Positions 30 to 20,000 of a stretch of DNA of 20,000 nt are shown piece after piece. Source of the DNA: an uncultured virus (IMG/VR IMGVR_UViG_3300020357_000003). Taxonomy: Duplodnaviria; Heunggongvirae; Uroviricota; Caudoviricetes. Under the pieces are notes generated by a model that saw only the letters and a list, made by a program, of their open reading frames with translations, did not search any database and had not been told where the DNA came from. Positions within the stretch are counted from its first letter, which is position 1; each line of letters starts with the position of its first letter. The translations under genes were made by a program, and so were the position numbers. Location of the stretch: the IMG/VR virus record IMGVR_UViG_3300020357_000003; one strand, written 5' to 3'.

Positions 30-347
30 ATGCCAGTATGGGCAGTAATACCTAAATTTAGTAAGCTTGTATCTGCTGCAATGAAAAAAGCAGGAGGTAC
101 TCCTGCAGCAAGACAGAAAGTTATAAAAGAAAACCCTAGCTGGTTTAAATATATGCCTGGAAAGGCTGGAAAAAAAGCAGGTAGTACACCAGCTAAAGCT
201 AAACCTAAAGCGACAACAGCTAAAAAGGGAAAAGGTGGTTTTAGTGAAGTACAGTTAGAAAAATACAGAGACATGTATAGAAACAGAAAGAATGATAAAA
301 GATGGGATCGCTTATCCCCAGATATTAAAAACAAGCTATTAAAATAG
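30..347 (+). CDS. Small, very basic Lys/Ala/Pro-rich hypothetical protein (105 aa), possibly nucleic-acid binding
   Basis: ORF with SD AGGAG at 18-22. Hand count gives about 22 Lys + 6 Arg versus 7 acidic residues. Internal repeat KKAGGTPAA / KKAGSTPAK. Confidence 0.75.
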   Translation: MPVWAVIPKFSKLVSAAMKKAGGTPAARQKVIKENPSWFKYMPGKAGKKAGSTPAKAKPKATTAKKGKGGFSEVQLEKYRDMYRNRKNDKRWDRLSPDIKNKLLK

Positions 348-355
348 GAGGAACT

Positions 356-1512: not shown

Positions 1513-1517
1513 TAGCA

Positions 1518-4334: not shown

Positions 4335-4341
4335 ATAGGTA

Positions 4342-4370
4342 ATGACAATTTATTTAAATAACGGTATTAT
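4342..4370 (+). promoter_or_regulatory. Putative host sigma70 promoter for the ejection-protein/vRNAP operon
   Basis: ATGACA (4342-4347), 17-nt spacer, TATTAT (4365-4370): 5/6 and 5/6 consensus matches, in the largest intergenic gap of the window. SD AGGAG at 4386-4390. N4 late genes are transcribed by host sigma70 RNAP. Confidence 0.6.
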
Positions 4371-4396
4371 TAGGGTAATAAAGATAGGAGTTTGAT

Positions 4397-5272
4397 ATGG
4401 CAGAAAATAATATTCCTTTATGGCAACAATATATTAATCAATATGCCCGTAGAGCAAGTAGACCTACATGGGGCAGACCGCAACAACCTCCTGGGTGGGA
4501 ATATCTAGCTAATCCACAACAATCAATGCCCGCAGTGATACCCACAGATTCAGCAGGTTCATATAGTTGGGCAGATCAGAACGCTTATTCTGTAAATCCA
4601 CAAACAAAAGAAAGGTATTTACCTGGGTGGAAAGCGAATCCCTATAGTGCTACTGGTGGTGTGGATGCAAGAATGCCTAGCTACTATGCAATGTCAGAAG
4701 GCGTAGTTCCAGATGATTGGAATTTCGGTGGTGGTGGTAGTGGTCGTGATAGATGGAAAAGTCTAGCAAGGCTTAGTGGAAATCAAAATTTTCTTAACCT
4801 ACCCACAGCAAATGAGCTAGCACAAACATACGGTAGTGCTAATATTGGTGGTAGTAGTTGGTTTGATACGGATACTGGTACTGGTACTGGTACAACTAAG
4901 GATGAAGATGATCCAGATTTGTATGATCCATTTGATGTAGGTGAACCTTCAGTAGACCAGATGAGATCATCCGCTACAGGATTAATTGATCCCTCTAAGT
5001 ATGGATCAGATTCAATATGGAGCGGGATTAAAGAGTGGACAGGCAAGAATCCAATGAAAGCTGCAGGTATTGGTTTAGATTTATGGAAACAAATAAACCA
5101 AAATAGAGCTTTGTCACAAAATAAAGCATATATGGATGATGTACGAAAAGCCATGGCATTTGATCAAGCTGATGTAAATAGACGTTGGGATCTAACTATG
5201 AAAGACTACAATAGACGAGTAGCTTTAGATGATAAATTCTTAGAGTCTCAAAAATTACCTACAGCAGTTTAA
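4397..5272 (+). CDS. N4 gp52-like ejection protein with long low-complexity N-terminal extension (291 aa)
   Basis: SD AGGAG. C-terminal amphipathic helix plus coiled coil (SIWSGIKEW...AAGIGLDLWKQ...AMAFDQADVNRRW...YNRR). Cys-free. Positional equivalent of gp52. Confidence 0.6.
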   Translation: MAENNIPLWQQYINQYARRASRPTWGRPQQPPGWEYLANPQQSMPAVIPTDSAGSYSWADQNAYSVNPQTKERYLPGWKANPYSATGGVDARMPSYYAMSEGVVPDDWNFGGGGSGRDRWKSLARLSGNQNFLNLPTANELAQTYGSANIGGSSWFDTDTGTGTGTTKDEDDPDLYDPFDVGEPSVDQMRSSATGLIDPSKYGSDSIWSGIKEWTGKNPMKAAGIGLDLWKQINQNRALSQNKAYMDDVRKAMAFDQADVNRRWDLTMKDYNRRVALDDKFLESQKLPTAV

Positions 5273-5282
5273 AGGAGTTATT

Positions 5283-5489
5283 ATGAGAGAACACATGTTA
5301 AATGCTTTACGAGCCTACTACACAGGGCATATTGAAAAGCATAAAATGAACATTGAAAATCTTATAACGAATAATGTAGGTGTTGCAGAACACCCAGACC
5401 ATATTGAAACTATATCGAAAGAAGTGGAATCCTTGGCTAAATACGATGAAATGCTACATATGGTAGATAAGTATTTTAGTCCAGAATAA
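5283..5489 (+). CDS. Small helical-hairpin hypothetical protein (68 aa), family recalled from marine phages
   Basis: SD AGGAG at 5273-5277. The pattern L.AL..Y..G.I.KH..N.E....N.VG..EH.D....I..E...A.Y.......KYF resembles small conserved ORFs I recall from marine T4-like cyanophage-type genomes (not searched). Confidence 0.8.
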   Translation: MREHMLNALRAYYTGHIEKHKMNIENLITNNVGVAEHPDHIETISKEVESLAKYDEMLHMVDKYFSPE

Positions 5490-5498
5490 GGAGCTATC

Positions 5499-7565
5499 AT
5501 GGCAAGAACTAACTTACCAGGGAATATTTTAAAAAGCCTTAATACCAGATTATTAGGCAATTTAAAAAGTGGAGTTGATACTAATATCGACTTAATGCAG
5601 GGTCAAGCTAATCTAGCTGAGCAGGGAGTTCAACGATATGCAGATATCTCTGCACAGGATTTTCTTTCAGATATAGAAGCTGTTAATACGGGTGATCCTA
5701 CACAGGATCTTTTAGCGAGAAATCAGTTAGTTCAACAAATGAAAGCAGACCCTGGTTTAATTGATATGGGTAAAGTTAATGTAGGACTGAGAAATATTCG
5801 AAAACAAGCTCCTATTGATTATTTAAAAGGTCAAGAGGCACAAAAAGCATTTAAAACGCAACATGATATTGACTGGGATACAAAGCACATGCGTGATCTT
5901 CCTAATCAATTTTTAGATGACGGTTCCGTAAATCCTGCTTTTCAAACAAGCTTAGAAAGTAATATTGCCGAAGCTAGAAGAAACAATATTGCTATTCCTC
6001 AAGAAAAAGCTCTGTATCGAAGTATATTCGATAATGATCCCTTTACACTATCAGCAGATACGACTACTACGTTAGAGAATCTATCAAAAGGTGGTGCAAA
6101 AGCATTTACTAAATCAGCACAAGCAGGTGTGATTAATAAAATAGCCGATAACATGGCTAAAAAATATCCTGGAATAACAGACAGGTCTGTATTCAAAACT
6201 AGAGCAGGTACTTTACTAGCTAATTCTAAATACGGTCAAAATTTTACATTAGGAATTGCAGATGAAGCTACTGATACAATTGATACGCTTGCAATAGAAC
6301 GAATGCAAAGTGATATAAGTAACGCTGCTCAGAATTATGGTAAAGGAACGGGAGAAGTCCTTGCTCAAAATAATAAAGTATATAGAGATAGTGTTAATGC
6401 TTTAATTACTTTTATGAATAAAAATAATATTGGAAGCGATCATCCAAACGCAAAAAATCTACAAGCTCCAATATTAAGAGCACTACAACGAGACGGCCTA
6501 TCTTTAGACAGTGTTGTTAAAAACAATACTAGTTGGTTAGCAGAATTAAATAGTGGTGCAATTAAAGTTAGTACTGCACAAAGCATAAAAGGGGCAATAC
6601 GTAGACACTACCAAAATCTATATCCTGAACTTACAGATGGTATTTTTGATCAGCACTACGACAAACTCAAAAATAACGCAGGAAGTGGTATATCAGCAGC
6701 TATTACACAAGGAGCTGCGAATGCTGCAGCTAGGGCAAAGACTATTGCCATAGATATGAAGAACAAAGAGGAATTCTGGTCAAGAGCGAACAGAGATGCA
6801 AATGCAATGGAGTATGAAACTGTTGAGGGTCATATTACTAGATCGTTAATGGAACAACTTAAAAGCGACTATAAAGATGAAGACTTTGACCCAGGTACTG
6901 GGATGGAACTTCAGGAATCAATAAGAAGGACTAAAAATCTATATGATTATGCTATAGGTCGAAAACTTCCTGAAAGCGGCCCCGAAAGGGATGCTTATAA
7001 TTTAGCTCTTAAACGAACAATGCTAAATAGTGTTACTTGGGACACAAAATTCACAGTCGGAGGATATACTGTAGTAAAAGCTGATTTCGGAATGGTAGGC
7101 GCCCCAGGGAATATAAGTCCTGAATGGTGGGATAATTTTCCAAATAAAGTAGATCTGTATAATAGATTTAAAGAGAATATTATACCTGCTAACGCTCTTA
7201 GAAAAGCTGAGAAAAATGAAAGAAAACTTAAAGAAGGATCTAAAAGCCTAATAACGGCAACCAATGACGCTCTTAAAAGTGTTAAATCACAAACACCACA
7301 AATATCAAAGTCTAGGGTTAGTTCTACTTATTCACAAGGTCTTGATCCACTATATCAATTTTCACAAGGAGGAGTAGGAAATCGTTATCAACCATCTACT
7401 ACTGGTCAACCAATTCCAAGTCAGAATACAGGAGGAACTCCGACTGCAAATCCAAACGTTGTAGAATTAGACAATGGAACCTTTCAGGTAACTTTACCTA
7501 ATGGTAAGACGGAAATAATAAGTAGAGAAAAAATGGCAGCCTACACTCTAATGGGTAGGCAATAA
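5499..7565 (+). CDS. N4 gp51-like ejection/internal virion protein (688 aa)
   Basis: SD TAAGGAG at 5487-5493. Directly upstream of vRNAP, helical Ala/Asn/Gln-rich composition, no Cys, size similar to gp51. Assigned mainly by synteny. Confidence 0.6.
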   Translation: MARTNLPGNILKSLNTRLLGNLKSGVDTNIDLMQGQANLAEQGVQRYADISAQDFLSDIEAVNTGDPTQDLLARNQLVQQMKADPGLIDMGKVNVGLRNIRKQAPIDYLKGQEAQKAFKTQHDIDWDTKHMRDLPNQFLDDGSVNPAFQTSLESNIAEARRNNIAIPQEKALYRSIFDNDPFTLSADTTTTLENLSKGGAKAFTKSAQAGVINKIADNMAKKYPGITDRSVFKTRAGTLLANSKYGQNFTLGIADEATDTIDTLAIERMQSDISNAAQNYGKGTGEVLAQNNKVYRDSVNALITFMNKNNIGSDHPNAKNLQAPILRALQRDGLSLDSVVKNNTSWLAELNSGAIKVSTAQSIKGAIRRHYQNLYPELTDGIFDQHYDKLKNNAGSGISAAITQGAANAAARAKTIAIDMKNKEEFWSRANRDANAMEYETVEGHITRSLMEQLKSDYKDEDFDPGTGMELQESIRRTKNLYDYAIGRKLPESGPERDAYNLALKRTMLNSVTWDTKFTVGGYTVVKADFGMVGAPGNISPEWWDNFPNKVDLYNRFKENIIPANALRKAEKNERKLKEGSKSLITATNDALKSVKSQTPQISKSRVSSTYSQGLDPLYQFSQGGVGNRYQPSTTGQPIPSQNTGGTPTANPNVVELDNGTFQVTLPNGKTEIISREKMAAYTLMGRQ

Positions 7566-7597: not shown

Positions 7598-10500
7598 ATG
7601 GCACTTAAAGAAGAGCTACATAACGCAGACATTGTTCAAGCGTTAACTAATGGCGCAACTCCACCAAAACCTTCCGCAAGAGACTCCCTTTTACAGACTA
7701 AAGCCGCTAGTTTAGCTAATGTACTAAATGCTAAACGCAATAGTGTCCATAATCTTAAAGCTACTAGATTAGCACAGGTTATAAATCACAAATATGGTAT
7801 GGGTGGGGCAACTCCCAATGTAGTCGGTACTAACAGTGATACTTTATCTACAGGTGAATTTGGTAATGTTACGTTTTCTGATAAAGTAAATCCAGACCCT
7901 GTAGTTACAGATGTAACAGCTGACCCTCTTACTACTCCTAAATCTTTTACAGAAGAAAATGAGATTTTTACGGCTATAGATGGAGCTGCTGAAGAATTTG
8001 GACTTCCTAAAGCATTATTTCGTTCGTTAGTTTTTGAAGAATCAGGCAATAAACAAACTGCTAAATCTCCAACCAATGTTAGAGGTATAGCTCAAGTAAC
8101 ACAACAAACCATGGAAGAAATGTTACCTGGTGGCGATGTAAATAATGCCGCTCATCAGTTGTATGCTGGAGCTAAGTACTTATCTAAGCATGTTAATAGA
8201 TGGAAACTTAAAGGATTTGACGAACGACAAGCTCAACAGTTAGCTGCTGCATCATATAATACTGGTTTTAGTCGTGTGCTGGAAGCTATTAAAGCAACTA
8301 AAAAAACTCATCCTACAATGCAAGAAATAGAAACTGCTGGTATTGCTCTATTTAAACAACGACCATTTAAAGGTGGAGTTAAAGAAGGCCCTGGTGGAAA
8401 AAAAGTAGCTACCAAAAAACGTAAAGATCTTGATAGTTTTAAAGAAGGTATGGGGCATTGGAAAAAAATTCATTACAAAGATGGTGTATTACAAGATTTT
8501 ACTAAACCTACTCCTCAAACACCGTTTGTTACAAAAATGCCAGAAGCAGTTGAGGAGACGTCCAAGCCAGTATCTAGTCAAACACATAAACCAGAAGACA
8601 AACCAACACCTCCTCCTATTAAAACAATTGATCCATCTGTTGATATTAGTGCTCCTGGTGGTATTGCAAAGGCTGTACAAGAAGCTCCTCCTGCTGATGT
8701 AGATTTACGAGATACTGGGGCAGATCGTAGAAAAGCTGAAAGACTACAAGCACAAAGAAGAGAATTTAAACGAATAGATGAACTTAGAAAAATTACTAAT
8801 AAGGCAGATAAAGAAGAAGTTGTTTTAACACCTACTCACAAATTACCTCATCTTAAAGAGCACAAGCCTCCTACACCTATTACTAAACCTCCTAGTGTTG
8901 ATATAGATAGAAGAGATCCAGGTAAAGACCGTGCAAGAGCAGAAAAACTGCAAGCAGAACAACGAAAATTTAAAAGAATAGATCAAGAACTAAGTAGCCG
9001 TAAAAAACAAAAGAAGTTTAGTGTGGATAGTCTTAGTGGTTATGGAGATTTTGCAACTGGACGTCAGGATCTTTCCGCAAATCAGTATTTAAATTCTGGT
9101 CTTGATACCATTATGGACAATGTCCAGACCAATAAAAAAATTATAGAAGATAAACATGATTCTGCTTATTTTGATAACAAACGTAAACAAGCTCTTACAA
9201 AGAGAGCAGAAATTATTTCTGATCCTAAAGGAACTTATCAACAACCTGCTGTTACTCCTGAAGTTCCAGAAACGGTACCAGAAGTAACACCAGAAGCAGT
9301 TCCGCAAATAGATGTTCCAGAGCCAGATATTTATAGTCCTCGATCTGTACCAAAAACAGTTAGTGAAAATATTTATAGTCCTGCTACTCCTCGCCCTGCT
9401 GAGGCTAAAACTTATGAGGATTTATACAGTTCTTACAAAACTCCTAATGAAGCACTGATTAAAGAAATTTATAAACTACCAGATTTTACTCCATCATCTC
9501 CAATAGTATCTGTAAATCGTAACTTAGTAGAATTACAAGATGGAACATATCGTCTACTTACACAAGACGGTACATGGATGCCTTTTAGCGATAAAATCGA
9601 AGCTCAAGTATTCATGGCTTATGATATTGCAAACTATCAAGCTAATCTTTTGGATCATCCTGAAGAAACATCAGTATCAGGAATGTACAATAAATTAGTA
9701 GGAGGTTTAGTTGATCCTGTTGAAACTATATTTCAAGGATTTGTAGGAGCTACAACTTTAACAGAACATATTAATGATCATAATAATAGACTTAAAGCTG
9801 GAAGTTTTCTGTCGTCTATTACACATGATCCTAATGATGAAATTACTCAGCAAGACAAATTAAACTATTTAGCAATTCAAGAAAATAAAGGACTATCAGC
9901 TGAGTTGCAGGCATTTAAGGATAGTGAAAAGTATCAAGTAATTGCTACTTTAGATAAGGATGCGAAAGAAAACCAAGACCAACAAGCTAAGCTTAAAGAA
10001 TTCTCTAAAATATGGCATGAAGCACATCCATATAATAGAAAATATATTGAAAGTGCTACTACAGCAATGCGTGTAATTGCTAAAGAGCATGGCAATGCGG
10101 CAGCAGCTTTAGAGCTATTTAAAGAATACAAAGGTACTCTTGCCCTACAAGGTCTTGATAGTTTTGGATATACGGTAGCATTAGTATATGGAAATATACC
10201 TGTCCAACTTGGGCTACTTACTGGCTTAGCTAGAGGCAGAACTAAGGCTAATATTGAGCAGTATGTTGCCGAGCATGGTGAAAAGGCATTAACACCTGAA
10301 ATACTTACGGATATTAAAATATTTTCTACTTTACAAGAAGTATCTGAAAAAGTAAGTGCAGGTATAGTTGTAAAACAACTTAAATTAATCCCAGGATTAG
10401 GTGGTGCTGGTTTATGGGGCACACAGATAACGAATGGTGTATTGGCAACTATACATCCTACTGTACGTACGTTAGGTAAAGTAGTATGGGCTCCTCCTAA

Positions 10501-13500
10501 AATGTTTGGTGCTGAGTTTGTACAAGGAACAACTAATTCAATGCTGGAACAAGCGGCATTACAGAAAAAAGTTGATATTGGTAAAGCAGCAGTTGAAGGA
10601 GGAATTCCAGAAGGATTTGCAGTTGGTACTATGGCACCAGCAATGGCAGTTGGAGGAACAGCCAAAGAGGTAACTAAAAAAGTTGCTAAAAAAGCATGGG
10701 ATCCTTCTGGAAAGAAAGCAGCAGCTAAAACAGACAAAGCAACTAAACAAAAAATTGAAAATGAAATAAAGAGCACTCAAGAAAAAATAGAAAAAATTAA
10801 AAAGATGCAAGAAGCACCTTCTAATTTAAAATCTAAATTAGACGCTCTTACTGAACAATTAACTGATTTACAAGATGCTTATGATGAAATACCCAATCTA
10901 CACGGTAAAACTTTAAGTTTACCTGGTCGACCTGGAAAACTGGAAACTACTAATACCTTACTGAAAAAGCTATATAAGCCTTATGAACAGTTAGTTTCAG
11001 ATGGTGCCATGTCATTAGATGACGCTATCGAAGCAATGAATGATGATTTAGAAGCTGAAATAGAGAAAAGACTAGAAGAGAAAACTAATTTAGAAGAGCA
11101 ACTGCCTGATCCAATCACACTTGAAGATACTGTTGAATATGTACAACATGAGGGCAAAGCAGTACCTGTAGGGATTGGGGCAAGAAAAATGACTGAACTC
11201 TTAGAACTTGAACTCCAATTAGAAACAAAAATAGCTGAACATAAGAGTAATGTTGAAAAGATTAATCAAAGTGACATACCTGGGCCGAAAAAACAGGAAG
11301 CTATTAAAATAGAAGAACAGAAACATGCTACATACCTAGAAGGAGCAATTAAAAAACAGGATAAATTGCTTAATGAGTTACAAGCTCCTCTTAACCCAAC
11401 AATGCTCAAAGTCTATGAAAAACAATTAATAGACGTTAATGATAGAAGAACTAAGGTACTTGAAAATGAATCATATAAAGCAAGTCCTAAGTCTCCGACT
11501 ATGCCAGGATCCGCAAATCCAAAAGGATTTAGGGCTGATGGAACAGGTAGAGATGTAGACAAAATTTCAGATGAAGAAGTTGATGCTCAAATTACATTAA
11601 TTAAAAAGATGAGCGAAGAAGAAGATCCAGATATTACGAATTTTGATCCAAGTGGAAAGTTTAAACCAGGAGACGTAGTTCATTTAAATACAACTGATGA
11701 AGAATTACTTAAAAAAGGTGAACAAGGATTTGTTATTGAAACAATCCTAGGCAAACAAGAAAGAGATGGGAAGGTTCATGTAAAACTTGCAGGAGTAACT
11801 GAAACTGTCCCAATTGATTCATTAATATTTGGAAATAAACCACGAACTGATACAACTCCTTCTACAAAATTAGATCATGTAGAGGCATTAATTGATAAAG
11901 ATTTAACTGATGCACAGATTACAAAAGTACGAGAACAACTCTCAAAAGAAATAAAAGAACTAGAAGAAAAAATAGGAACTGGTAAGAGAGTTCTAGGGTC
12001 ATTAGAAGATAGGCTTGATGAAATAGAAAAGTTAACTCCAGAAGAATTAGAAAAGAAATTAGCAGAAGCCAAGTCCCCAGATGACATAAAATTCTGGACA
12101 GCTAAACTTAATCAAAAAAGAATTCAAAAAGAAAGAGGTGAAAAACAAGACGCTATTGATAAAGATATGGCAACGGTACATGAGGAAATTCTTGAAGGGG
12201 AGAGCAAGAAATTTAAAGGATTACATGCTTACTACACAGACATTGTAACAGCCCTTACTGAATTAACAGATCATGTAAAACTCACAAGACGACTTGAATC
12301 TCTTGTTTCAGATATGCGTACTCATGCTACTAATATAAACAATAAATTAAATGCATTTGATAATGCCTATGAAATATTTACTAGTACTGGTAAAGCCGTA
12401 GCTGTTGTGGGTACTAAAGCTGAAAATAGTAGAGATATGACCTATGAAGTAGTAACAGATATGACCGAGACTCAAATTGATGAAGCACATAAAAAGAAAT
12501 TATATAATGGAAAATTTGCGTATGTTACAAAAATAGATAAAAACTCAGGTAGATTAATTGATACGCTTGCTGGGGAAGTAAATTATGGTAATTGGATTAT
12601 GGGGGTAGTTGAAGGACATAGAAATACTTCTATGGCTAAAAATGAATTCAATAAAGCCCGAAATCTTGCTGAACACGAAGAAGTTTTAAGAAGATTAAAA
12701 AAAGCTAAAGATTCTCTTAAAGCACCTGAAATAGATGAAGCAACAATAGAGGGAATATCAGTTGAAGACATTCCTACAACTCCGACTGCTATTCTTAAAG
12801 AAAACCTAGAAGCTATTTTACAAAGAGGGTTGGAACTTAAAAAGAAAATAGACGAGGGTACAATAACTCCAGAGGAAAAAAATGAACACGAATCTCTCCA
12901 ACAAAGCTATATTGCTCTCAATAAAGAAATTCAAGGACGAGAAAAGATTGAAGGAGCAGAACCAGGAGAACAACTTGACCTTTTTCCAGAAGGTGAAGTC
13001 CCTGAAAGATCTGATGAACCACCTGGCCCAACTACTACACCTTTTGATGAGACTACTCCACCTCCTAGACCGGGTGAAAAAGGAGAGCAACTCTCGTTAT
13101 TCGACAGATCTGCCGAAGATACAACAGAAAAAGGAACACAATTAAATCTGTTTCCTAATTTTATTGAAGGCAGCAAACGAATATACAAAAGAGCTATTAC
13201 AGGAGGTGTACTTAAAGTATTAGGCGGTAAATTAACGGCTACTAATTTAGAACGGCAGTTAAAAGTACTTGGTGCGTATTTTACAGACTTAGTTCAAATC
13301 GGATCCACACGACCTACATTAAAAGATGCTGTTAATACTCTGATGGATGAAGATTTTGATACTCAGGAATCGTTAGTTAATGCCTTAATGAATTTAGGTG
13401 TAACACAAGCATCGGCTGAAACATTATCTAAAAACTTTACGCATTTTAAAAATAGATATGATCAAGTTAGTTCTATAGATTTATCAAGAAAAGAGGTTGT

Positions 13501-16500
13501 AATACGGACGGTTAATAATGTTACAGACGTAGATAAAGATGGGAATCCTATTCTATGGAAAGTAGAAGAATTAAGTAGAGACATAAATGATGCATATGAT
13601 AAAGATGGTCAATACACTAGAGTAAGTAGAGAGATTAAAGATGCATCTGGTAATATTCAGACCACGACTAAGGTATTGCCTACATCTGAACTATTAAATG
13701 TTAGAAATCATGCTTTAAGAGCCCCGTTAACTTTACTTCTTCAAGAAGATCCTACTGGTAATAACAATCAAGGTGTACTACCTAATCAGATAGTATTTAC
13801 CATGATGTTAACAGCTATGTCTTTTAGACAACGTACCCCTAACAATAATAGATTTAAGGATAACGACTTTGCAAAAGAAGCTTTTCTATATAGTGGTAAG
13901 AACCAAACACTTAATAGAAATGAAGATGAGGAACTTAATGACGTTGGTTTTGGGTACCATGATGCAGCTATGGATATGGGAAACCATGCTATTAGTATTT
14001 TAGATCTAAGAGCTAAAAAAATCCCTAAAGACAGTCCTATAGACCAAGTAGGAGCGGATCTATATTTTGAACTCCTAGCTCCTGCACTTGGAATGATGGC
14101 CTTAGAAATTGCTCAAGGCACTGATAAAGGTGCTTATTTTTCTGTAGAGAAAAAATATTGGAATTTTGATGATTACAATGAAAATAGGGCTTTTAACAAT
14201 GCACCTACGCATGAAAAAGTCTCTGATAATGAAGAGATTAGAAAAAAATATCCAGAAGGTAAACCTATACCATTAGAACAACAACAGCATTACTTACATA
14301 TTAAAGTAGATGAAAATCAAAAATGGAACCAAAGTACTTTTGATGCCTTAGAAGAAATGAAAAGTATCTCTAAGGCTAATATGATTAATAGTCCTGGCCC
14401 TTTTCAAACTCCTCCTCCAATAAACCCATCTACAGGTACTTTTACAGAAGCTCCTAAAGGTGGGGAAGTTTATGAAACACTTAAAAGACTTCAAAATGTT
14501 GTATGGAGTAAATTAGAGTCCATGGATCTTGTGGCTGATTTACGAGACACAGATGTCTTGAAAGAGCTAATGGATGTTGAGGAGTTATACGAAACTACTG
14601 AGGATGGTGAAAAAATACAATTATTCCATGACGTTGAAATAGCCAGTAAAACATCTAGAAATAATGGAATGCTAGATACTTTGCAGGAACTATTACAGGC
14701 ATATGATCGTGGGGAATTAACAGCATTTCATTTAGCTTGGAAATTACAAAGCCACCATAGGTATATGCAGGTAGGTAAGATTAATCCTCAAAATAGTAAA
14801 CTTACTAGAGGCTTAGTAGGTGCTTGGGGACTTAATAAAATTTCCGTAGATAATGAACAACAGTTTACTAATTTTAAATTAGCAATTAATGAAGCTTTTG
14901 CTGTAGAGAAAAAAGATTTAGTTGAATCAGAAGAAGCCTTTCAGAATATTATTAATCACTCAAATGTTCTAGCAGCTGTAGAAGCTATGCAACGTCTTAA
15001 TGCCGCTAAAGGAATTCTTAGAACTAAACCTAAAGATGCCAAGGCTAAGAAGGATAAAGACAGAGCTTCTCAAGATCTATCCTCAGCTTTATCAGCAATT
15101 AAAAAAGATAATACATTTAAAGAAGCTGATATTACTCTCCTAAATGGTATTACTGCATTATCTAAATACATGACAGTAGAAGCTATTCAGAAAACTAAAG
15201 CAGGTTATCCAAGTAGAAATAAAAGATATACTAAGAATTTTAGACGAATTGAAGACAAATCAAAATCTACTTTTGAAACTGATCTTTATACTGAAAGGGA
15301 CGGTACTTCTAATGGTTGGGCTATAAATGTACTCCAGTTTCCTATGTGGGACAAAGAAGAACGTATACGTAAGAATAGTCAAGTAGGCCATAATCTTAAA
15401 GATAAGTCCTTTGATCCAAAAGAACCTGGTGTTTATGAAGATCTAGTTAAATTTATGCAGAATAATGACTCTGCTGATGTTGCTTGGGAATGGTACAAAG
15501 ATAAGTATAAGAAAAAAGTATTTTCAAGAGTGTCAAAAGACCTAGTTGATAAAAAAAGATATACTCTGACAAAAGAGGGAGAAGCTAATTTTAAAGAGGA
15601 CTATAACAAGATTAATGCCGCTCTTATAATTATCTATCCAGAGTTTAGAGATCAGGAATCTATGAGGGAGGTTGTTAAGTATCCTTTTATTATGAAGATG
15701 TATGGTGGAGGAATAGCTAATATAGCTAATGAGGTAAGTAATGAAGTAAATAAAGCTATGTACTCACGAATTAGTACTATTCAAAAAGAATACAAAGAGA
15801 TTTTTAATAATGAAGAAGAGGAACTCCTACGTTCAGATATACCTGCATTCCTTACTAAAGTTACTAATAGAAAAGGAGTACCAGACGCTAAACAATATGC
15901 TAAAGAAGATCTTACAAATAGAATTTATACATTAAGAATTTTTAATTCTAATACTATTCCAGGATTAACTGCATCTCAGCATTTTGGAAATCCTTGGGCG
16001 TCTAGAGATATCCCAGGTACTATCAAAACACCAGATATAAAAACTGCTGTTAATAATTATAAAGCATGGTTAGAGGGTACAGCCCATCAAGATGTAGAAC
16101 CTAACCGTAGAAAATGGATTCGTAAACAAATTGGTGATGGTAATTTAGATGATAAAGAATTAGTTTACTACACGACATTGTCGGAACCTAGCCATGCAGA
16201 TGTACTAAGAGATTTGGTAGAAGAAACCTCAAAAACAGCGCTTCCTGTAGACACCCATAAATACAAAAGATATGGATTTTTTGAAAATAGAAAAAATTAT
16301 GAAAAGCAAATTATTACACCTTTTATGGATGCTTTAGAAACACTAAATGCATTTAATCAAACAGATCGAGGAGCTCTTGGTCGAATGTTAATAGAAGGTA
16401 CTAAAAAAGATTTAGGTATAACTCCTCCTGCTTTTAAAGTAAAGCTTAATGACATACAGGTACGTGCAGAATTAAATACTCGTGTTGCTCCTAGATTTGA

Positions 16501-19500
16501 AGCTAGTTTAGATGAGTTACTTGGGGATACTGTAGAACCTCGACAATCAATAGTCGAAATGGGAGACGTACTACACCAAGTATTTATGGTTCATTTTGAA
16601 GAGGCTATTAAGAATAAATTAGATGAAATTAATTTAGATGCCCCTGTTATGGAAGATGTACCTGTTGAAGTTACACAAGGCGCCTATACGTTTAACGTTA
16701 TAAAGACTAAAGATGGCTTTAGCATTACTAATAAGAAAACAGGCAAACCTGCTCCTAAAAACATGGCAGCGAAGACTCGCAAAGCTATTGAGGATAAGGC
16801 TACTGAGCAACTTAGGGCTGTTAGGCCTGGTTTAACTAAACAAGAAGTTATTGATCTGGTTAAGGATAAACAAGGCTTAATGAAATTCTACCCTCAAGTA
16901 GCTGGTGCTTTAGCTACAAGGCTCCAAGATGGAACAATTGAAGGTGGTATTGATTTAAGTTCTACTAAATTTACAACTAACAAAGGTGATATAGAAGAGA
17001 ACCAAGCTGAAATTAACTTTTATGATCGTGAAAGACAAAAAGATACATCCAGATCTACACCTAAACGATCATTGGTATTCGATGCAGCTGGATTAGCTGT
17101 GCTAATTCGTCAGGTTATCAACCAAGACGCATCAGCTATGACTAGGCTACTTTTGAAAAAAGCAGAAATAAATGCTCTTCATGATGGATTTAATGCCAGT
17201 AGTAATTGGGCAAATTACTTAACAAGAACCTATAACAAAATACACTGGGAACTCAATACAACCCATAGCATTATGGAAGCAATGCATAATCAAATGCTAG
17301 GGGTTCTGCGTAATACAGATCGTAAAGATATAGTAGATGCTATAGAACTAACTGAGAAAGAACAAAAACGAATAGCTAGAGAAGAAAAATTAACTGCTAA
17401 AGCTATTCAATTAATGGAAGAGTTTAGACAAGATATAGATAATCGAACTAAAGCTGCAAAATTAAATGATTTTATAAAGGAACATAAACTTGACGCTGAC
17501 AGATTGAGAATGGGATTTAAGAATGCCAAGGTAGGTAAAACACTTACTAGATTAGATAAAGTAAAAATGCGTGTATGGGAAGCTAATCCAGAATACCTTG
17601 AGTGGAATGACAAATCTAGTCTTAGTGTTATATCTGAAAGAGCTAAAGCAATTACACAAAAAGTACGTGAGCAAAGACAAAAGCTACTAGAAGATGGCTA
17701 CACTAATATAGACCATATGTATAATTTATCTAATGAAGAATTATCTGAAACTGACACACTAAATGAGTTTGAACAAAACTATAATAAGAATACAGAAACA
17801 TTTAGCTTTACATCTTTTGAAGCAATGGGAAAATCTATGGGTTATAACCCAAAGATATCTAGAGATAGTGGTAATTTTAATAAACACTATAGAGAGCAAA
17901 CTAATTTATTTCCTGCTTATAATAAAGATTTAGATATAAAACTTACAAAATTAGGTAAAAAATTGGGTCTTCATTCTTTAGACGCTTTTCCTAAAGGTGA
18001 AATAACTTCTACTGAAGAACTAGGGGCTATTACTAGTGATAATGTTAGATCACTATTTAATAAATTTAAAGCTCTTTCAGGTAAGTACTACGATAGTCAA
18101 GATGAAATGGATTCACATACATCTACGTTAAATGAAGTATTAGATATTATATCTGACGGGTTTCAAGAAACTAATGATCTTACTTTAACAATGGAGAAAA
18201 TAGAAGGAATTACTCAAGCAACTTATGAACCAGAAAGTGAACGCATAACTATGTCTGTTAGTCAATTACCTCCTAGAGGGCGTAATGGGCAATCACCACA
18301 GGAAGCATATCTTCATGAAATGGTTCATGCTATGACATTGGTTGCACTGGAAGAAGATCCTGTATTAGCAGATAGACTTGAAAGCTTACATAATGAATTA
18401 GAAGCTGAACTACATAAAGATTTTAAGGGTGAGGGCTGGAAAGTATTCCGTCCTAAAGGAACTAGTCCAGTTAATTTAGCTACAGGTGCAGAAACTAATC
18501 TAGCAAAAGCACAATATAAACATGCTTTCGACACAGCAAATTCTAAGGATAGACTAACTGAGTTTTTATCAATGGCTCTTACGAATAGATCTTTAATTGA
18601 TTATATGAAATCAAAACAACTTGCTAAAGATCGAAGCTATTTAACTAAATTTATGGAATTCGTTCAATCAATTGTAAATGCTTTTAAACGAATACTTAAT
18701 AAGAAAGTAGAGTCCAATAATACGACAGCTTATGCTGAAGCTATAGCGATTACGGAACAATTAGTTGCTATGCAAAATAAACATAAAAGTAAATATGGTC
18801 AATTAGATAGTAAAACTATTCAATTTTTAGAACGCTCTGACGCTCGGATAATTGAATTTTTTGATCAAGCTGTTGCAACAGTAGCTGCTGAAACAGAAAA
18901 ATACGGGCCAGGTGGAGAAACGGCTCCAATACCATTTAAAGTTGCAACTATGGGTACATATGCAGGGTACCTAACCATGAGTGATAGTGTTCACGCTAAA
19001 GCAACTAGAGATCACATTATGGGTTTGCTTAATTTTACTATGCGTGGTGTTGCTAAAGAAATAGGAGGCGGTGCTTTAGAGAATCCGAAACTGGTAGAAC
19101 AACTACTTCATTCTAAAATTAATATATCTAAAAGACGTAGAGAAGCAGAGACATTCTCTAATGAATGGTTTAAAACTATCTGGAAATCCAGACCAGATGA
19201 TAGTGGAGATGATAAATGGATGTCTTTTGAAACTCGAGAAGCTCTTACTGATGTACTTTTAAGAGCAGATCTATCTAGTCTTCGTAAGATGCATACTTTA
19301 GGATTTGCAGATAAAGATCCTAATGCTACTAGAAAAATTATGAACTTATTAGGAGAGGATAAGGTTGCTAGAATTGAAAGAAGTAGATTAAAAGATCAAA
19401 TTAGAAGGCAACTTGGGTTAACTAAAGATAGTGAAGCTATAGCATATGCAGATGAATTAGGTTACTGGATTGCAACTGGTAAACGCAAAAAACATGATGC

Positions 19501-20000
19501 ATATACTAATGCGTATTCTATTGCTCTTGACCACTTAGAAGGAGACTTTACTCCAGCACAAGTTAATTTATTAGATGCATATGCGACTATATCTTCTATC
19601 CCTCATCTTGATATTCAACAACGGGAGAAAGTTCAGCAACTATCTACTAGAGAATTTAATGCAGATCCAGATGCTAATGGAATGATTGATTTACTCGATA
19701 ATCATATCTGGTACAAAACAAAATCTCAAAGAGATCTGTTTGATGGAGATCCTGTTCAAATGGTTAAAGGCTATATTGTTGAACGTCTGGATAATCTTAC
19801 AGATATTAAAATTGGATCAGCTGCGGATAAAGATAAGATGGCTGCTCGTGGATATAAACACTCGTACCCATTAGGTAAAATAGATAGATCACAAACACTG
19901 GATACAATGTATATCAATAGAAATATTCCAGAAGTAGCTGATATATCCGGGATTATGTCTACGACCAATCAACGACATATGGGAACCTCATTAACTGAAA
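7598..20000 (+). CDS. vRNAP: Giant virion-encapsidated RNA polymerase (N4 gp50-like), >4134 aa, 3'-truncated by the window
   Basis: Manual translation from ATG 7598 (in-frame TAA at 7586-7588 upstream) shows no stop to the window end. Polymerase motifs: QSHHR...NPQ (14747-14791), motif A LYTERDGTSNG (Asp 15299-15301), motif B REVVKYPFIMKMYG = Rx3Kx7YG (15665-15706), motif C ALHDG (Asp 17183-17185). HEMVH at 18314-18328. Confidence 0.95.
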   Translation, partial: MALKEELHNADIVQALTNGATPPKPSARDSLLQTKAASLANVLNAKRNSVHNLKATRLAQVINHKYGMGGATPNVVGTNSDTLSTGEFGNVTFSDKVNPDPVVTDVTADPLTTPKSFTEENEIFTAIDGAAEEFGLPKALFRSLVFEESGNKQTAKSPTNVRGIAQVTQQTMEEMLPGGDVNNAAHQLYAGAKYLSKHVNRWKLKGFDERQAQQLAAASYNTGFSRVLEAIKATKKTHPTMQEIETAGIALFKQRPFKGGVKEGPGGKKVATKKRKDLDSFKEGMGHWKKIHYKDGVLQDFTKPTPQTPFVTKMPEAVEETSKPVSSQTHKPEDKPTPPPIKTIDPSVDISAPGGIAKAVQEAPPADVDLRDTGADRRKAERLQAQRREFKRIDELRKITNKADKEEVVLTPTHKLPHLKEHKPPTPITKPPSVDIDRRDPGKDRARAEKLQAEQRKFKRIDQELSSRKKQKKFSVDSLSGYGDFATGRQDLSANQYLNSGLDTIMDNVQTNKKIIEDKHDSAYFDNKRKQALTKRAEIISDPKGTYQQPAVTPEVPETVPEVTPEAVPQIDVPEPDIYSPRSVPKTVSENIYSPATPRPAEAKTYEDLYSSYKTPNEALIKEIYKLPDFTPSSPIVSVNRNLVELQDGTYRLLTQDGTWMPFSDKIEAQVFMAYDIANYQANLLDHPEETSVSGMYNKLVGGLVDPVETIFQGFVGATTLTEHINDHNNRLKAGSFLSSITHDPNDEITQQDKLNYLAIQENKGLSAELQAFKDSEKYQVIATLDKDAKENQDQQAKLKEFSKIWHEAHPYNRKYIESATTAMRVIAKEHGNAAAALELFKEYKGTLALQGLDSFGYTVALVYGNIPVQLGLLTGLARGRTKANIEQYVAEHGEKALTPEILTDIKIFSTLQEVSEKVSAGIVVKQLKLIPGLGGAGLWGTQITNGVLATIHPTVRTLGKVVWAPPKMFGAEFVQGTTNSMLEQAALQKKVDIGKAAVEGGIPEGFAVGTMAPAMAVGGTAKEVTKKVAKKAWDPSGKKAAAKTDKATKQKIENEIKSTQEKIEKIKKMQEAPSNLKSKLDALTEQLTDLQDAYDEIPNLHGKTLSLPGRPGKLETTNTLLKKLYKPYEQLVSDGAMSLDDAIEAMNDDLEAEIEKRLEEKTNLEEQLPDPITLEDTVEYVQHEGKAVPVGIGARKMTELLELELQLETKIAEHKSNVEKINQSDIPGPKKQEAIKIEEQKHATYLEGAIKKQDKLLNELQAPLNPTMLKVYEKQLIDVNDRRTKVLENESYKASPKSPTMPGSANPKGFRADGTGRDVDKISDEEVDAQITLIKKMSEEEDPDITNFDPSGKFKPGDVVHLNTTDEELLKKGEQGFVIETILGKQERDGKVHVKLAGVTETVPIDSLIFGNKPRTDTTPSTKLDHVEALIDKDLTDAQITKVREQLSKEIKELEEKIGTGKRVLGSLEDRLDEIEKLTPEELEKKLAEAKSPDDIKFWTAKLNQKRIQKERGEKQDAIDKDMATVHEEILEGESKKFKGLHAYYTDIVTALTELTDHVKLTRRLESLVSDMRTHATNINNKLNAFDNAYEIFTSTGKAVAVVGTKAENSRDMTYEVVTDMTETQIDEAHKKKLYNGKFAYVTKIDKNSGRLIDTLAGEVNYGNWIMGVVEGHRNTSMAKNEFNKARNLAEHEEVLRRLKKAKDSLKAPEIDEATIEGISVEDIPTTPTAILKENLEAILQRGLELKKKIDEGTITPEEKNEHESLQQSYIALNKEIQGREKIEGAEPGEQLDLFPEGEVPERSDEPPGPTTTPFDETTPPPRPGEKGEQLSLFDRSAEDTTEKGTQLNLFPNFIEGSKRIYKRAITGGVLKVLGGKLTATNLERQLKVLGAYFTDLVQIGSTRPTLKDAVNTLMDEDFDTQESLVNALMNLGVTQASAETLSKNFTHFKNRYDQVSSIDLSRKEVVIRTVNNVTDVDKDGNPILWKVEELSRDINDAYDKDGQYTRVSREIKDASGNIQTTTKVLPTSELLNVRNHALRAPLTLLLQEDPTGNNNQGVLPNQIVFTMMLTAMSFRQRTPNNNRFKDNDFAKEAFLYSGKNQTLNRNEDEELNDVGFGYHDAAMDMGNHAISILDLRAKKIPKDSPIDQVGADLYFELLAPALGMMALEIAQGTDKGAYFSVEKKYWNFDDYNENRAFNNAPTHEKVSDNEEIRKKYPEGKPIPLEQQQHYLHIKVDENQKWNQSTFDALEEMKSISKANMINSPGPFQTPPPINPSTGTFTEAPKGGEVYETLKRLQNVVWSKLESMDLVADLRDTDVLKELMDVEELYETTEDGEKIQLFHDVEIASKTSRNNGMLDTLQELLQAYDRGELTAFHLAWKLQSHHRYMQVGKINPQNSKLTRGLVGAWGLNKISVDNEQQFTNFKLAINEAFAVEKKDLVESEEAFQNIINHSNVLAAVEAMQRLNAAKGILRTKPKDAKAKKDKDRASQDLSSALSAIKKDNTFKEADITLLNGITALSKYMTVEAIQKTKAGYPSRNKRYTKNFRRIEDKSKSTFETDLYTERDGTSNGWAINVLQFPMWDKEERIRKNSQVGHNLKDKSFDPKEPGVYEDLVKFMQNNDSADVAWEWYKDKYKKKVFSRVSKDLVDKKRYTLTKEGEANFKEDYNKINAALIIIYPEFRDQESMREVVKYPFIMKMYGGGIANIANEVSNEVNKAMYSRISTIQKEYKEIFNNEEEELLRSDIPAFLTKVTNRKGVPDAKQYAKEDLTNRIYTLRIFNSNTIPGLTASQHFGNPWASRDIPGTIKTPDIKTAVNNYKAWLEGTAHQDVEPNRRKWIRKQIGDGNLDDKELVYYTTLSEPSHADVLRDLVEETSKTALPVDTHKYKRYGFFENRKNYEKQIITPFMDALETLNAFNQTDRGALGRMLIEGTKKDLGITPPAFKVKLNDIQVRAELNTRVAPRFEASLDELLGDTVEPRQSIVEMGDVLHQVFMVHFEEAIKNKLDEINLDAPVMEDVPVEVTQGAYTFNVIKTKDGFSITNKKTGKPAPKNMAAKTRKAIEDKATEQLRAVRPGLTKQEVIDLVKDKQGLMKFYPQVAGALATRLQDGTIEGGIDLSSTKFTTNKGDIEENQAEINFYDRERQKDTSRSTPKRSLVFDAAGLAVLIRQVINQDASAMTRLLLKKAEINALHDGFNASSNWANYLTRTYNKIHWELNTTHSIMEAMHNQMLGVLRNTDRKDIVDAIELTEKEQKRIAREEKLTAKAIQLMEEFRQDIDNRTKAAKLNDFIKEHKLDADRLRMGFKNAKVGKTLTRLDKVKMRVWEANPEYLEWNDKSSLSVISERAKAITQKVREQRQKLLEDGYTNIDHMYNLSNEELSETDTLNEFEQNYNKNTETFSFTSFEAMGKSMGYNPKISRDSGNFNKHYREQTNLFPAYNKDLDIKLTKLGKKLGLHSLDAFPKGEITSTEELGAITSDNVRSLFNKFKALSGKYYDSQDEMDSHTSTLNEVLDIISDGFQETNDLTLTMEKIEGITQATYEPESERITMSVSQLPPRGRNGQSPQEAYLHEMVHAMTLVALEEDPVLADRLESLHNELEAELHKDFKGEGWKVFRPKGTSPVNLATGAETNLAKAQYKHAFDTANSKDRLTEFLSMALTNRSLIDYMKSKQLAKDRSYLTKFMEFVQSIVNAFKRILNKKVESNNTTAYAEAIAITEQLVAMQNKHKSKYGQLDSKTIQFLERSDARIIEFFDQAVATVAAETEKYGPGGETAPIPFKVATMGTYAGYLTMSDSVHAKATRDHIMGLLNFTMRGVAKEIGGGALENPKLVEQLLHSKINISKRRREAETFSNEWFKTIWKSRPDDSGDDKWMSFETREALTDVLLRADLSSLRKMHTLGFADKDPNATRKIMNLLGEDKVARIERSRLKDQIRRQLGLTKDSEAIAYADELGYWIATGKRKKHDAYTNAYSIALDHLEGDFTPAQVNLLDAYATISSIPHLDIQQREKVQQLSTREFNADPDANGMIDLLDNHIWYKTKSQRDLFDGDPVQMVKGYIVERLDNLTDIKIGSAADKDKMAARGYKHSYPLGKIDRSQTLDTMYINRNIPEVADISGIMSTTNQRHMGTSLTE
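7976..8473 (+). other. SLT-family (GH23) lytic transglycosylase domain at the vRNAP N-terminus
   Basis: IDGAAEEFGLPKALFRSLVFEESG (catalytic Glu 8039-8041), AKSPTNVRGIAQ (GLMQ-type motif 8084-8095), QLYAGAKYL, AAASYNTG (AYNxG motif, to 8266). Confidence 0.88.
8687..8983 (+). repeat. Diverged ~31-aa internal duplication in the vRNAP
   Basis: PPADVDLRDTGADRRKAERLQAQRREFKRID (8687-8779) versus PPSVDIDRRDPGKDRARAEKLQAEQRKFKRID (8888-8983). Confidence 0.85.
9251..9382 (+). repeat. Pro/Glu/Val/Thr low-complexity repeats and an exact 14-bp direct repeat in the vRNAP linker
   Basis: VTPEVPETVPEVTPEAVP. ATATTTATAGTCCT at 9327-9340 and 9369-9382 (DIYSP / NIYSP). Confidence 0.8.
11660..11824 (+). other. 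KOW/SH3-like beta-barrel domain in the vRNAP
   Basis: FKPGDVVHL...GEQGFVIETI...DGKVHVKLAG..ETVPIDSL: F-x-x-G-D-x-V start and strand pattern typical of KOW/Tudor/SH3 barrels, embedded in coiled-coil sequence. Confidence 0.6.
12971..13153 (+). other. Three tandem beta-sliding-clamp-binding-like motifs
   Basis: QLDLF 12971-12985, QLSLF 13088-13102 and QLNLF 13139-13153, in an acidic Pro-rich disordered linker. Bacterial consensus is QL[S/D]LF. Confidence 0.75.
13250..17720 (+). other. Single-subunit (T7-superfamily, N4 mini-vRNAP type) RNA polymerase domain; boundaries approximate
   Basis: Motifs A, B and C in the correct order. NPQxxKLxR, AGLAV...DA preceding motif C, and terminal IDHM (N4-like VDQM). 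Confidence 0.9.
15923..16219 (+). other. DUF4326-like domain inserted within the polymerase between motifs B and C
   Basis: IYTLR...HFGNPW...AVNNYKAWL...LDDKELVYY...PSHADVL parallels the recalled DUF4326 pattern YIGR...WGNPF...Y..WL...L.GK.L.C.C...CH.DVL, with the Cys residues replaced. Confidence 0.7.
18180..18610 (+). other. Zincin-like metallopeptidase domain in the vRNAP C-terminal region
   Basis: Beta strands (ATYEPESERITMSV), then EAYLHEMVHAMT (HEXXH at 18314-18328), then a downstream candidate third ligand in RLTEFLSMALTN. Confidence 0.8.

What the first reader, a model, noticed from the sequence alone, without database searches (positions are those of the whole stretch)
15782..16300. 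Cys-free DUF4326-like domain inserted inside the polymerase fingers region
Seen: the motif B Arg to motif C Asp distance is 506 aa, against ~285 aa recalled for N4 mini-vRNAP (R666 to D951). Shortly after motif B lies a ~100-aa unit with HFGNPW, YKAWL and SHADVL. Recalled: DUF4326 is a function-unknown domain common in phages, normally with a C-x-C...C-H cluster; here the Cys positions read YY and S while the His is kept. Inference: an accessory nucleic-acid- or nucleotide-binding, possibly counter-defence, module grafted onto the catalytic core and purged of Cys to suit ejection. Its location gives a functional handle on DUF4326.
Basis: partly seen in the sequence, partly recalled or inferred. 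Interest (0 to 1): 0.72.

Follow-up and report, generated by a model that had tools for sequence, protein, structure and literature searches.

The report
Cysteine-free DUF4326 passenger in injected polymerase
A small enzyme-like domain of unknown activity, rebuilt without its usual three cysteines, rides as an optional passenger inside the giant RNA polymerase that an N4-like phage injects with its DNA, probably as an early counter-defence tool.

Summary
The open frame 7598..19999 is the N-terminal 4,134 residues of a 4,638-residue, cysteine-free, N4-like virion RNA polymerase. About 60 residues after the motif B arginine it carries a discrete insert of about 140 residues (nt 15845-16276). Eight of ten homologues lack this insert, including two that are 91-95% identical in the flanks.

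Its 104-residue core (nt 15920-16231) is homologous to DUF4326:
- Pfam alone is sub-threshold at 15-16 bits against a cut-off of 25.
- A profile of five copies finds PF14216-annotated proteins at E down to 5.7e-18.
- hhalign gives 99.9% probability.

The canonical C-x-C-x4-C-H reads Y2857-x-T2859...S2865-H2866.

The module belongs to a large cysteine-free clade with an invariant Tyr at the first Cys position. On a tree of 223 modules it is separated from the cysteine type by one change. The clade roams among giant cysteine-poor phage proteins and uses three different sites within this polymerase family alone. It often lies beside NADAR or SLOG domains.

It is therefore a passenger, not a polymerase part. 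The most likely role is injected NAD/ADP-ribose-linked counter-defence, which is inferred and not shown. This scan has noted DUF4326-like passengers in other virion polymerases before.

The parts
7598..19999 (+). Giant ORF, open at the 3' end: first 4,134 aa of a 4,638-aa N4-like virion RNA polymerase / polyvalent ejected protein with 0 Cys
7976..8308 (+). N-terminal SLT lytic transglycosylase domain (aa 127-237)
   Evidence: PF01464 E 5.5e-13, 48.9 bits against cut-off 21.3
15293..15316 (+). Polymerase motif A region (ERDGTSNG; D2568 invariant)
   Evidence: E2566, D2568, G2569, N2572, G2573 invariant in 9 homologues; assignment to motif A is by recalled T7-like pattern
15665..15712 (+). Polymerase motif B (R2690, K2694, Y2702, GGG)
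   Evidence: spacing K+8=Y as for N4 K670/Y678 (PMC2784036 passage); PF21894 N4_RNAP_helical match 2690-2733, sub-threshold here but above cut-off in P0003 and P0004
15845..16276 (+). Whole insert (aa ~2750-2893): linker + module + linker; absent in 8 of 10 homologous polymerases
15920..16231 (+). Cysteine-free DUF4326-like module (aa 2775-2878)
   Evidence: AF2 model pLDDT 78.9, pTM 0.75
15980..15997 (+). HFGNPW motif (canonical H-[FY]-G-N-P-F; G, N, P in 116 of 116 small relatives)
16166..16195 (+). Former cysteine loop: Y2857-Y-T2859-T-L-S-E-P-S2865-H2866, aligned to canonical C-x-C-x4-C-H
17174..17191 (+). Polymerase motif C (ALHDGF; D3196 invariant)
18314..18328 (+). HEMVH zincin-type motif in the C-terminal region (H3573, E3574, H3577 invariant)
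   Evidence: an HExxH motif in N4 gp50 subdomain C1 is described in PMC13434306 (passage)

Best explanation
The insert is a passenger domain, not a working part of the polymerase. It is a member of a cysteine-free sister clade of DUF4326, spliced through two short linkers into a tolerant surface region after motif B of an N4-like virion RNA polymerase.

The polymerase is packed in the capsid and ejected with the DNA, so the module reaches the cytoplasm before any phage gene is expressed. This step is inferred from N4 and DEV. There it most likely binds, and probably hydrolyses, a phosphorylated ribose, ADP-ribose or NAD-derived nucleotide, either a host immune signal or an adduct. It would use the residues kept in both clades: H2795, G-N-P, W2824, R2837/R2838, W2840, H2866 and D2868. 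It would not use a thiol.

On this reading, the three cysteines of canonical DUF4326 are not needed for whatever function the two clades share. They were replaced once (Tyr, a variable residue, Ser/Asn/Met) in a lineage adapted to cysteine-suppressed ejected proteins.

Shown: homology, discreteness, optional presence, roaming, absence of cysteine, and co-occurrence with NADAR and SLOG domains. Inferred: ejection, the ligand class, catalysis and the counter-defence role.
For: Homology:
- The A1 profile finds 153 small proteins at E<=0.01. Of the 120 listed, 113 carry PF14216, and the best of these has E 5.7e-18.
- hhalign of A1 against 82 canonical proteins gives 99.9% probability, E 3.6e-34.
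- The ESM Atlas lists DUF4326 for 30 of 30 hits.
- 13 of the top 50 BFVD rows are DUF4326 proteins.

Optional passenger:
- The insert is absent in 8 of 10 homologues.
- P0003 has it, while P0004 and P0005 lack it at 91-95% flank identity.
- In this polymerase family the module also sits at about aa 1838/1854 (P0092, P0042) and about aa 2327/2362 (P0009).
- 787 representatives match at E<=0.001. The listed 150 are mostly giant proteins with the module anywhere along their length.

Cysteine-free clade:
- The first Cys column is Tyr in 109 of 109 hosts of 700 aa or more.
- There is one state change on the tree of 223 modules with the Cys columns removed, branch support 84.
- Host proteins hold 0.094% Cys.

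Context:
- NADAR occurs in 7 of 63 mid-size carriers, 3 of them above the Pfam cut-off, and in P0164.
- cpYpsA, YAcAr or DprA-like SLOG domains occur in P0013, P0014, P0103, P0020 and P0060.
- This matches the fusions and the ADP-ribose-processing prediction in PMC9503650 and PMC7824862 (passages).

Ejection and cysteine suppression are described in PMC11445570 and PMC2784036 (passages). Presley and Nepra vRNAPs have 0 Cys.
Against: - No activity, ligand or structure is known for any DUF4326 protein. No PDB relative was found by sequence or fold.
- Pfam itself scores the window module below its cut-off, 15.2-16 bits against 25.
- If DUF4326 is a thiol phosphatase of the rhodanese-phosphatase superfamily, as proposed in PMC9503650, a clade without cysteine cannot use that chemistry and may be inactive.
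- H21, E60 and R63 are less conserved in the cysteine-free clade: 85/109, 45/109 and 73/109, against 104/107, 100/107 and 104/107 in the small proteins.
- The window protein has no NADAR, SLOG or Macro partner.
- Only the best 150 of 787 hits were seen, and the query profile itself was cysteine-free, which biases the sample.
- The tree is FastTree only and the key branch has moderate support.
- The insert was not resolved in the core model, where its pLDDT was below 50.
Confidence: 0.5

Rival explanations
1. Pseudoenzyme or binder. Canonical DUF4326 uses a catalytic cysteine, read as C-X5-H in the strand-loop-helix. The cysteine-free clade has lost catalysis and survives as a ligand-binding module. 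It would act either as a sponge for a host nucleotide signal or as a sensor, delivered with the DNA.
For: - The second Cys column has no consistent replacement in giant hosts: gap 31, T 26, K 15, G 14, A 9 of 109.
- Several canonical polar residues are relaxed in the clade.
Against: - N24 (109/109), Y83 (109/109), W50, R64 (101/109) and H92 (90 of 92 aligned) stay nearly invariant. That is compatible with catalysis as well as with binding.
- The window copy keeps every non-Cys canonical residue.
- The rhodanese-phosphatase fold was not recovered for the model, which is inconclusive.
Confidence: 0.25
2. Polymerase-linked role. Placed in the fingers near the motif B loop, the module either clears ADP-ribose-type adducts from the template ahead of the enzyme or gates early transcription in response to a ligand.
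For: - The fingers site recurs in 4 representatives: the window protein, P0003, P0015 and P0079.
- The module is more conserved than its flanks, 69% against 42-49% between the window protein and P0003.
- In N4 the motif B loop and the fingers are regulatory (PMC4496689 and PMC13492108, passages).
- NADAR neighbours elsewhere suggest an adduct-removal context.
Against: - Polymerases 91-95% identical in the flanks lack the insert.
- The same module sits at two other sites in this family.
- In most listed carriers no polymerase part of this family was detected. Only 3 of 153 had the motif A-B region at E<=1e-5, using a narrow profile.
Confidence: 0.1
3. Inert bead. The module is a decayed domain kept only as a folded spacer in a 'beads on a string' ejected protein, with no biochemical function.
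For: - N4 vRNAP is described as flexibly linked globular subdomains (PMC13434306, passage).
- The insert is dispensable in near-identical relatives.
- The cysteines are lost.
Against: There is strong purifying conservation of polar and aromatic residues across 109 giant hosts. 385 representatives match at E<=1e-10. The module is more conserved than its polymerase flanks.
Confidence: 0.05

Closest known systems
DUF4326 (Pfam PF14216), small stand-alone phage and giant-virus proteins
   Same: Same length and motif order: H-[FY]-G-N-P-F, W-L-x-G, E-P-x-R-R-x-W-I, H-[GA]-[DE]-[VI]-L. Profile-level homology. Same domain partners (NADAR, SLOG) as reported in PMC9503650 and PMC7824862 (passages).
   Different: All three conserved cysteines are replaced: Y2857, T2859 and S2865. 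There is a two-residue insertion before the last strand. The module scores below Pfam's cut-off. It is embedded inside a 4,638-aa protein rather than free-standing.
N4 gp50 virion RNA polymerase and Schitoviridae homologues (PDB 9pnr, 3c3l; DEV gp71)
   Same: T7-like motifs A, B and C; giant size; no cysteine; HExxH motif downstream of the polymerase; C-terminal region homologous at 22-29% identity; synteny with ejection-operon-type genes.
   Different: No sequence-level PDB hit, even with a profile. The protein is 4,638 aa long and has an SLT domain fused at its N-terminus. The motif B-to-C spacing is about 220 residues longer, of which about 140 are the DUF4326-like insert. Presley and Nepra vRNAPs have no such module.
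Polyvalent proteins of phages and conjugative elements (Iyer et al. 2017, PMC5512222)
   Same: A giant multidomain protein that combines RNAP, a zincin-type motif and a lysozyme/transglycosylase, with swappable effector domains predicted to act right after injection (passage).
   Different: In that paper 'SLOG', 'NADAR', 'rhodanese' and 'cysteine' have 0 occurrences. The domain is inserted inside the catalytic polymerase region here, not appended.
Rhodanese-phosphatase superfamily (proposed parent of DUF4326, PMC9503650)
   Same: The strand-loop-helix with a conserved His and acidic residue after the loop could be read as a C-X5-R-type cradle. That reading is my inference from the alignment.
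   Different: There is no cysteine nucleophile at all. No rhodanese or phosphatase chain is among the listed fold matches.

Membership tests
DUF4326 (PF14216) | Match to the Pfam model at or above the gathering score (25 bits) | tested here: not met
   15.2-16.0 bits, E 0.02-0.036. 4 of 5 clade members have DUF4326 as top hit, best E 0.0031. 0 of 63 mid-size carriers reach 25 bits.
DUF4326 (PF14216) | Profile-level sequence homology to annotated members | tested here: met
   113 of 120 listed hits of profile A1 carry PF14216, best of these E 5.7e-18 in 5.8 billion sequences. hhalign 99.9%, E 3.6e-34, 81 columns.
DUF4326 (PF14216) | Conserved non-Cys motifs (HxGNPF, WLxG, EPxRRxWI, H-[GA]-[DE]) | tested here: met
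   H2795, G, N, P, W2824, E2834, P2835, R2837, R2838, W2840, H2866 and D2868 all align to columns conserved in 76-116 of 116 small relatives (D2868 lowest at 76, the others 104-116).
DUF4326 (PF14216) | C-x-C-x4-C-H cysteine cluster | tested here: not met
   The columns hold C in 112, 109 and 112 of 116 small relatives. The window has Y2857, T2859 and S2865, and the His is kept.
DUF4326 (PF14216) | Shared fold with predicted DUF4326 structures | tested here: inconclusive
   13 of the top 50 BFVD rows are DUF4326 proteins (TM 0.38-0.57, probability up to 0.96), but no row has E<=0.001.
N4-like virion RNA polymerase (T7-like single-subunit RNAP) | Catalytic motifs A, B and C in order | tested here: met
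   D2568; R2690, K2694, Y2702; D3196. All are invariant in 9 homologues.
N4-like virion RNA polymerase (T7-like single-subunit RNAP) | Fold match to N4 vRNAP | tested here: met
N4-like virion RNA polymerase (T7-like single-subunit RNAP) | Packaged in the virion and ejected | not testable with these tools
   Inferred from homology, cysteine absence and the literature.
Polyvalent proteins (Iyer et al. 2017) | Several unrelated effector-type domains in one giant phage protein | tested here: met
   SLT, RNAP, HExxH motif and the DUF4326-like module.
Rhodanese-phosphatase superfamily | Active-site cysteine in the strand-loop-helix cradle | tested here: not met
   0 Cys in the module and in the whole protein.
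Rhodanese-phosphatase superfamily | Fold similarity to solved members | tested here: inconclusive
NADAR | Fold or sequence similarity | tested here: inconclusive

The most novel reading that the evidence does not exclude
The cysteine-free DUF4326 clade is a fully active, thiol-independent enzyme that phages inject ready-made. In this polymerase it sits beside the template path so that ADP-ribose-type marks on the incoming DNA (DarT-like) or NAD-derived alarm nucleotides are erased in the first seconds, before any phage gene is expressed. If so, the canonical cysteines are only a metal clasp, and the proposed thiol-phosphatase mechanism for DUF4326 is wrong.
Probability: 0.12. Interest if true: 0.8.

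Novelty: new variant of a known kind. Interest (0 to 1): 0.55.

Why it matters
DUF4326 is common in phages and giant viruses, but its activity is unknown. The only published proposal I found, in passages of PMC9503650, is a rhodanese-phosphatase-type enzyme acting on ADP-ribose products.

A large natural clade keeps every other conserved residue but replaces all three cysteines. That is a ready-made mutagenesis experiment. It indicates which residues to test (H2795, N2798, R2837/R2838, H2866), and it makes the thiol mechanism directly falsifiable.

The finding also shows that cysteine suppression in ejected phage proteins extends to acquired passenger domains. Pfam-invisible DUF4326 relatives are a frequent cargo of giant injected proteins. 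Natural pairs of polymerases with and without the module, 91-95% identical in the flanks, offer a clean genetic test of its counter-defence value.

Tried and rejected
- Single-sequence phmmer of aa 2201-3500 against PDB found no polymerase. A six-sequence whole-protein profile found nothing at E<=0.01. The link to N4 therefore rests on PHROG, Pfam, tblastn and fold matches.
- Alignment A2 had 6,197 columns, over the 6,000 limit of the PDB search, so it was not sent. The smaller A3 was used instead.
- megablast of the whole window against 'phages' found no match. tblastn against 'phages' also found none for aa 2301-3300 or for the module at E<=1e-3.
- The 1,001-residue core model was too weak in the insert (pLDDT below 50 for model residues 440-597) to show whether it is a separate surface lobe. 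Exact N4 fingers boundaries could not be read because PMC2278199 is not held.
- An intein or homing element was considered and rejected. The insert has no nuclease or splicing motifs in Pfam, it is in frame, and its GC equals that of the ORF, 0.345 against 0.347.
- Local profiles of the window protein's regions found polymerase or C-terminal parts in only 10 of 153 carriers. I therefore dropped the idea that all carriers are N4-type polymerases.
- The search of earlier findings by sequence and by place returned nothing.

Full report
**What is in the window.** One open frame runs from 7598 to the end of the window: 4,134 residues, open at the 3' end. An identical, complete protein of 4,638 residues is on record (P0002).

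It is an N4-like virion RNA polymerase of the 'polyvalent protein' type:
- PHROG 2206 'virion RNA polymerase' matches at E 5.2e-87.
- An SLT lytic transglycosylase domain lies at aa 127-237, E 5.5e-13.
- The C-terminal 631 residues match 80 phage records by tblastn at 22-29% identity. All are N4-like, and many are annotated 'virion RNA polymerase'.
- Sequence searches against PDB found no polymerase, even with a profile, so this is a distant relative.

The protein has no cysteine in 4,134 residues. Twelve of the 13 proteins returned also have none, and the remaining one has a single Cys.

**The observation.** HFGNPW (aa 2795), YKAWL (aa 2821) and SHADVL (aa 2865) are present. The N4 residues K670, Y678 and D951 are quoted in PMC2784036 (passage).

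A local alignment of ten homologous polymerases shows a clean insertion at about aa 2750-2893 (nt 15845-16276). Only the window protein and P0003 have it, and the flanks align well in all ten. BLAST layouts agree. P0003 is 91-95% identical in both flanks to P0004 and P0005, which lack the insert. The polymerase therefore exists with and without it.

The module is 69% identical between the window protein and P0003, whereas their flanks are 42-49% identical. GC and GC3 of the insert equal those of the rest of the ORF.

**Is it DUF4326?** Pfam alone is not decisive: 15.2-16 bits, E 0.02-0.036, against a cut-off of 25. Four of five copies have DUF4326 as their top hit, best E 0.0031.

A profile of five copies from giant proteins (A1) settles the question:
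- Among proteins of 53-184 residues it finds 153 at E<=0.01. Of the 120 listed, 113 carry a precomputed PF14216 annotation, and the best of these has E 5.7e-18 in a database of 5.8 billion sequences.
- hhalign of A1 against 82 of these canonical proteins gives 99.9% probability, E 3.6e-34.
- The ESM Atlas returns DUF4326 clusters for 30 of 30 hits, score 0.91.
- A model of the module (pLDDT 78.9, pTM 0.75) finds DUF4326 proteins in 13 of the top 50 BFVD rows and 6 of the top 10. No row has E<=0.001.

**The cysteines.** I aligned the module to 116 small relatives. The canonical columns hold C in 112, 109 and 112 of them, followed by H in 116 of 116. The window has Y2857, T2859, S2865 and H2866. 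All other conserved positions are kept: H2795, G-N-P, W2824, E2834, P2835, R2837, R2838, W2840 and D2868.

**A large cysteine-free clade that roams.** The exhaustive profile search found 787 representatives at E<=0.001 and 385 at E<=1e-10. Only the best 150 were visible, and the query profile was itself cysteine-free, so the sample is biased.
- Of those 150, 3 have any cysteine in the module.
- Most are proteins of 1,000-6,800 residues, with the module anywhere from residue 1 to residue 6,577.
- The 103 carriers of 700 residues or more hold 291 Cys in 310,486 residues (0.094%). The 116 small proteins hold 3.3%.
- In 109 of 109 modules from hosts of 700 residues or more, the first Cys column is Tyr. 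The third is S, N, M or T. The second has no consistent residue.
- On a FastTree of 223 modules the cysteine-free and cysteine types differ by a single change. The three Cys columns were removed, and 35 of 258 rows were dropped for fewer than 75 filled columns. The branch has support 84.
- P0165 ('LVCY-NHKNCCH') looks intermediate.

**Several sites within one polymerase family.** Within this polymerase family the module uses three sites:

| Site (window protein numbering) | Carriers |
|---|---|
| After motif B | window protein, P0003, P0015, P0079 |
| Between residues 1838 and 1854 | P0092, P0042; perhaps P0016, which ends nearby |
| Between residues 2327 and 2362 | P0009 |

Only 10 of 153 carriers share any region with the window protein at E<=1e-5.

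**Context.** Known neighbours in carriers come from the NAD/ADP-ribose set.
- NADAR occurs in 7 of 63 mid-size carriers at E<=0.001, 3 of them above Pfam's cut-off. It often lies within 30-60 residues of the module. It also occurs in P0164.
- cpYpsA SLOG lies directly after the module in P0013 and occurs in P0103.
- YAcAr occurs in P0014.
- DprA-like SLOG lies directly after the module in P0020 and occurs in P0060.
- SF1 helicases and DUF7831 also recur.
- Most giant carriers have no Pfam or PHROG match at all: 9 of 12 and 7 of 12 scanned, respectively.
- The window protein has no such partner domain.

**Literature.** 'DUF4326' occurs in 9 papers of the library. I read passages only.
[quoted passage not shown] - A 2025 preprint notes DUF4326 fused to homologues of the anti-Avs protein ORF83.
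- None of the passages I saw mentions a cysteine-free form or an insertion in a virion polymerase.
- The polyvalent-protein paper PMC5512222 has 0 occurrences of SLOG, NADAR, rhodanese or cysteine.
- Cysteine suppression in the Schitoviridae ejection operon is documented: 0.00075% in gp71 homologues against 0.865% proteome-wide. It is attributed to passage through the periplasm (PMC11445570; PMC2784036).
- I confirmed 0 Cys in the Presley and Nepra vRNAPs, against 0.8-1.5% in the primase, a gp42-like protein and two unannotated Nepra proteins.
- N4 vRNAP is described as flexibly linked globular subdomains (PMC13434306).

**Reading.** The insert is an optional passenger in an ejected polyvalent polymerase, drawn from a pre-existing cysteine-free DUF4326 lineage. 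Its biochemical role is unknown. The best inference from its partners and conserved residues is action on an ADP-ribose- or NAD-derived nucleotide right after injection.

Losing all three cysteines while keeping the other invariant residues argues one of two things. Either the shared function does not need a thiol, or this clade is a binding-only derivative. I favour the first only slightly.

The 'fingers' placement follows from T7-like topology and from the N4_RNAP_helical Pfam match, which ends about 17 residues before the insert. It was not resolved structurally.

**Earlier notes of this scan.** AI notes of this scan, which I did not check, describe DUF4326-like passengers in crAss-like virion polymerases and a 'roving' DUF4326 module in a DNA polymerase on other DNA. 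The theme is therefore not unique to this window.

Noticed in passing
window 12971-13153 (aa 1792-1852): Three G-[ET]-Q-L-[DSN]-L-F motifs (QLDLF, QLSLF, QLNLF) lie within 60 residues of a Pro-rich linker before the polymerase region. About 0.05 QLxLF are expected per protein. A single copy is conserved in P0003-P0005 and P0007. The pattern resembles the bacterial beta sliding-clamp-binding consensus, which I recall and did not test. The same linker is where P0092 and P0042 carry their DUF4326-like module.
   Followed up: partly
window 7976-8308: The SLT lytic transglycosylase is fused to the N-terminus of the polymerase here. In Acinetobacter phage Presley an SLT-containing protein is a separate gene just upstream of the vRNAP.
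   Followed up: partly
window 18314-18328: The HEMVH zincin-type motif is invariant in 9 homologues (H3573, E3574, H3577). It matches the HExxH noted in the C1 subdomain of N4 gp50 (PMC13434306, passage).
   Followed up: no
window 8672-8791 and 8876-8995: Two copies of a ~40-residue unit of the form '...D-x-RD-x-G-x-DR-x-x-AE-x-LQA-x-x-R-x-FKRID' lie 68 residues apart in the N-terminal region. Their function is unknown.
   Followed up: no
window 30-7565: Five of the six upstream ORFs have 0 Cys (105, 210, 174, 291 and 688 aa). Only the 938-aa ORF at 1518-4334 has any, with 4. The 174-aa ORF matches a virion structural PHROG. This fits the cysteine-suppressed ejection operon described for Schitoviridae (PMC11445570).
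   Followed up: partly
G001:C12 and G002:C1 (loci L002, L001): The same DNA lies on a contig of a 1.4-Mb, 98%-complete genome bin and in a 24.8-kb linear viral record rated 35% complete. Whether the bin is the host or merely co-binned was not examined.
   Followed up: no
P0023, P0067, P0121, P0084, P0039: DUF7831 (PF25176) recurs in carriers of the module. It was found in 5 of the 75 carriers scanned with Pfam. It is another uncharacterised passenger of these giant proteins.
   Followed up: no
P0165 (154 aa): This small PF14216 protein has the two-residue 'GI-LDNK' insertion typical of the cysteine-free clade but still carries cysteines ('LVCY-NHKNCCH'). It is among the C-type proteins nearest to the cysteine-free clade on the tree and may be an evolutionary intermediate.
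   Followed up: partly
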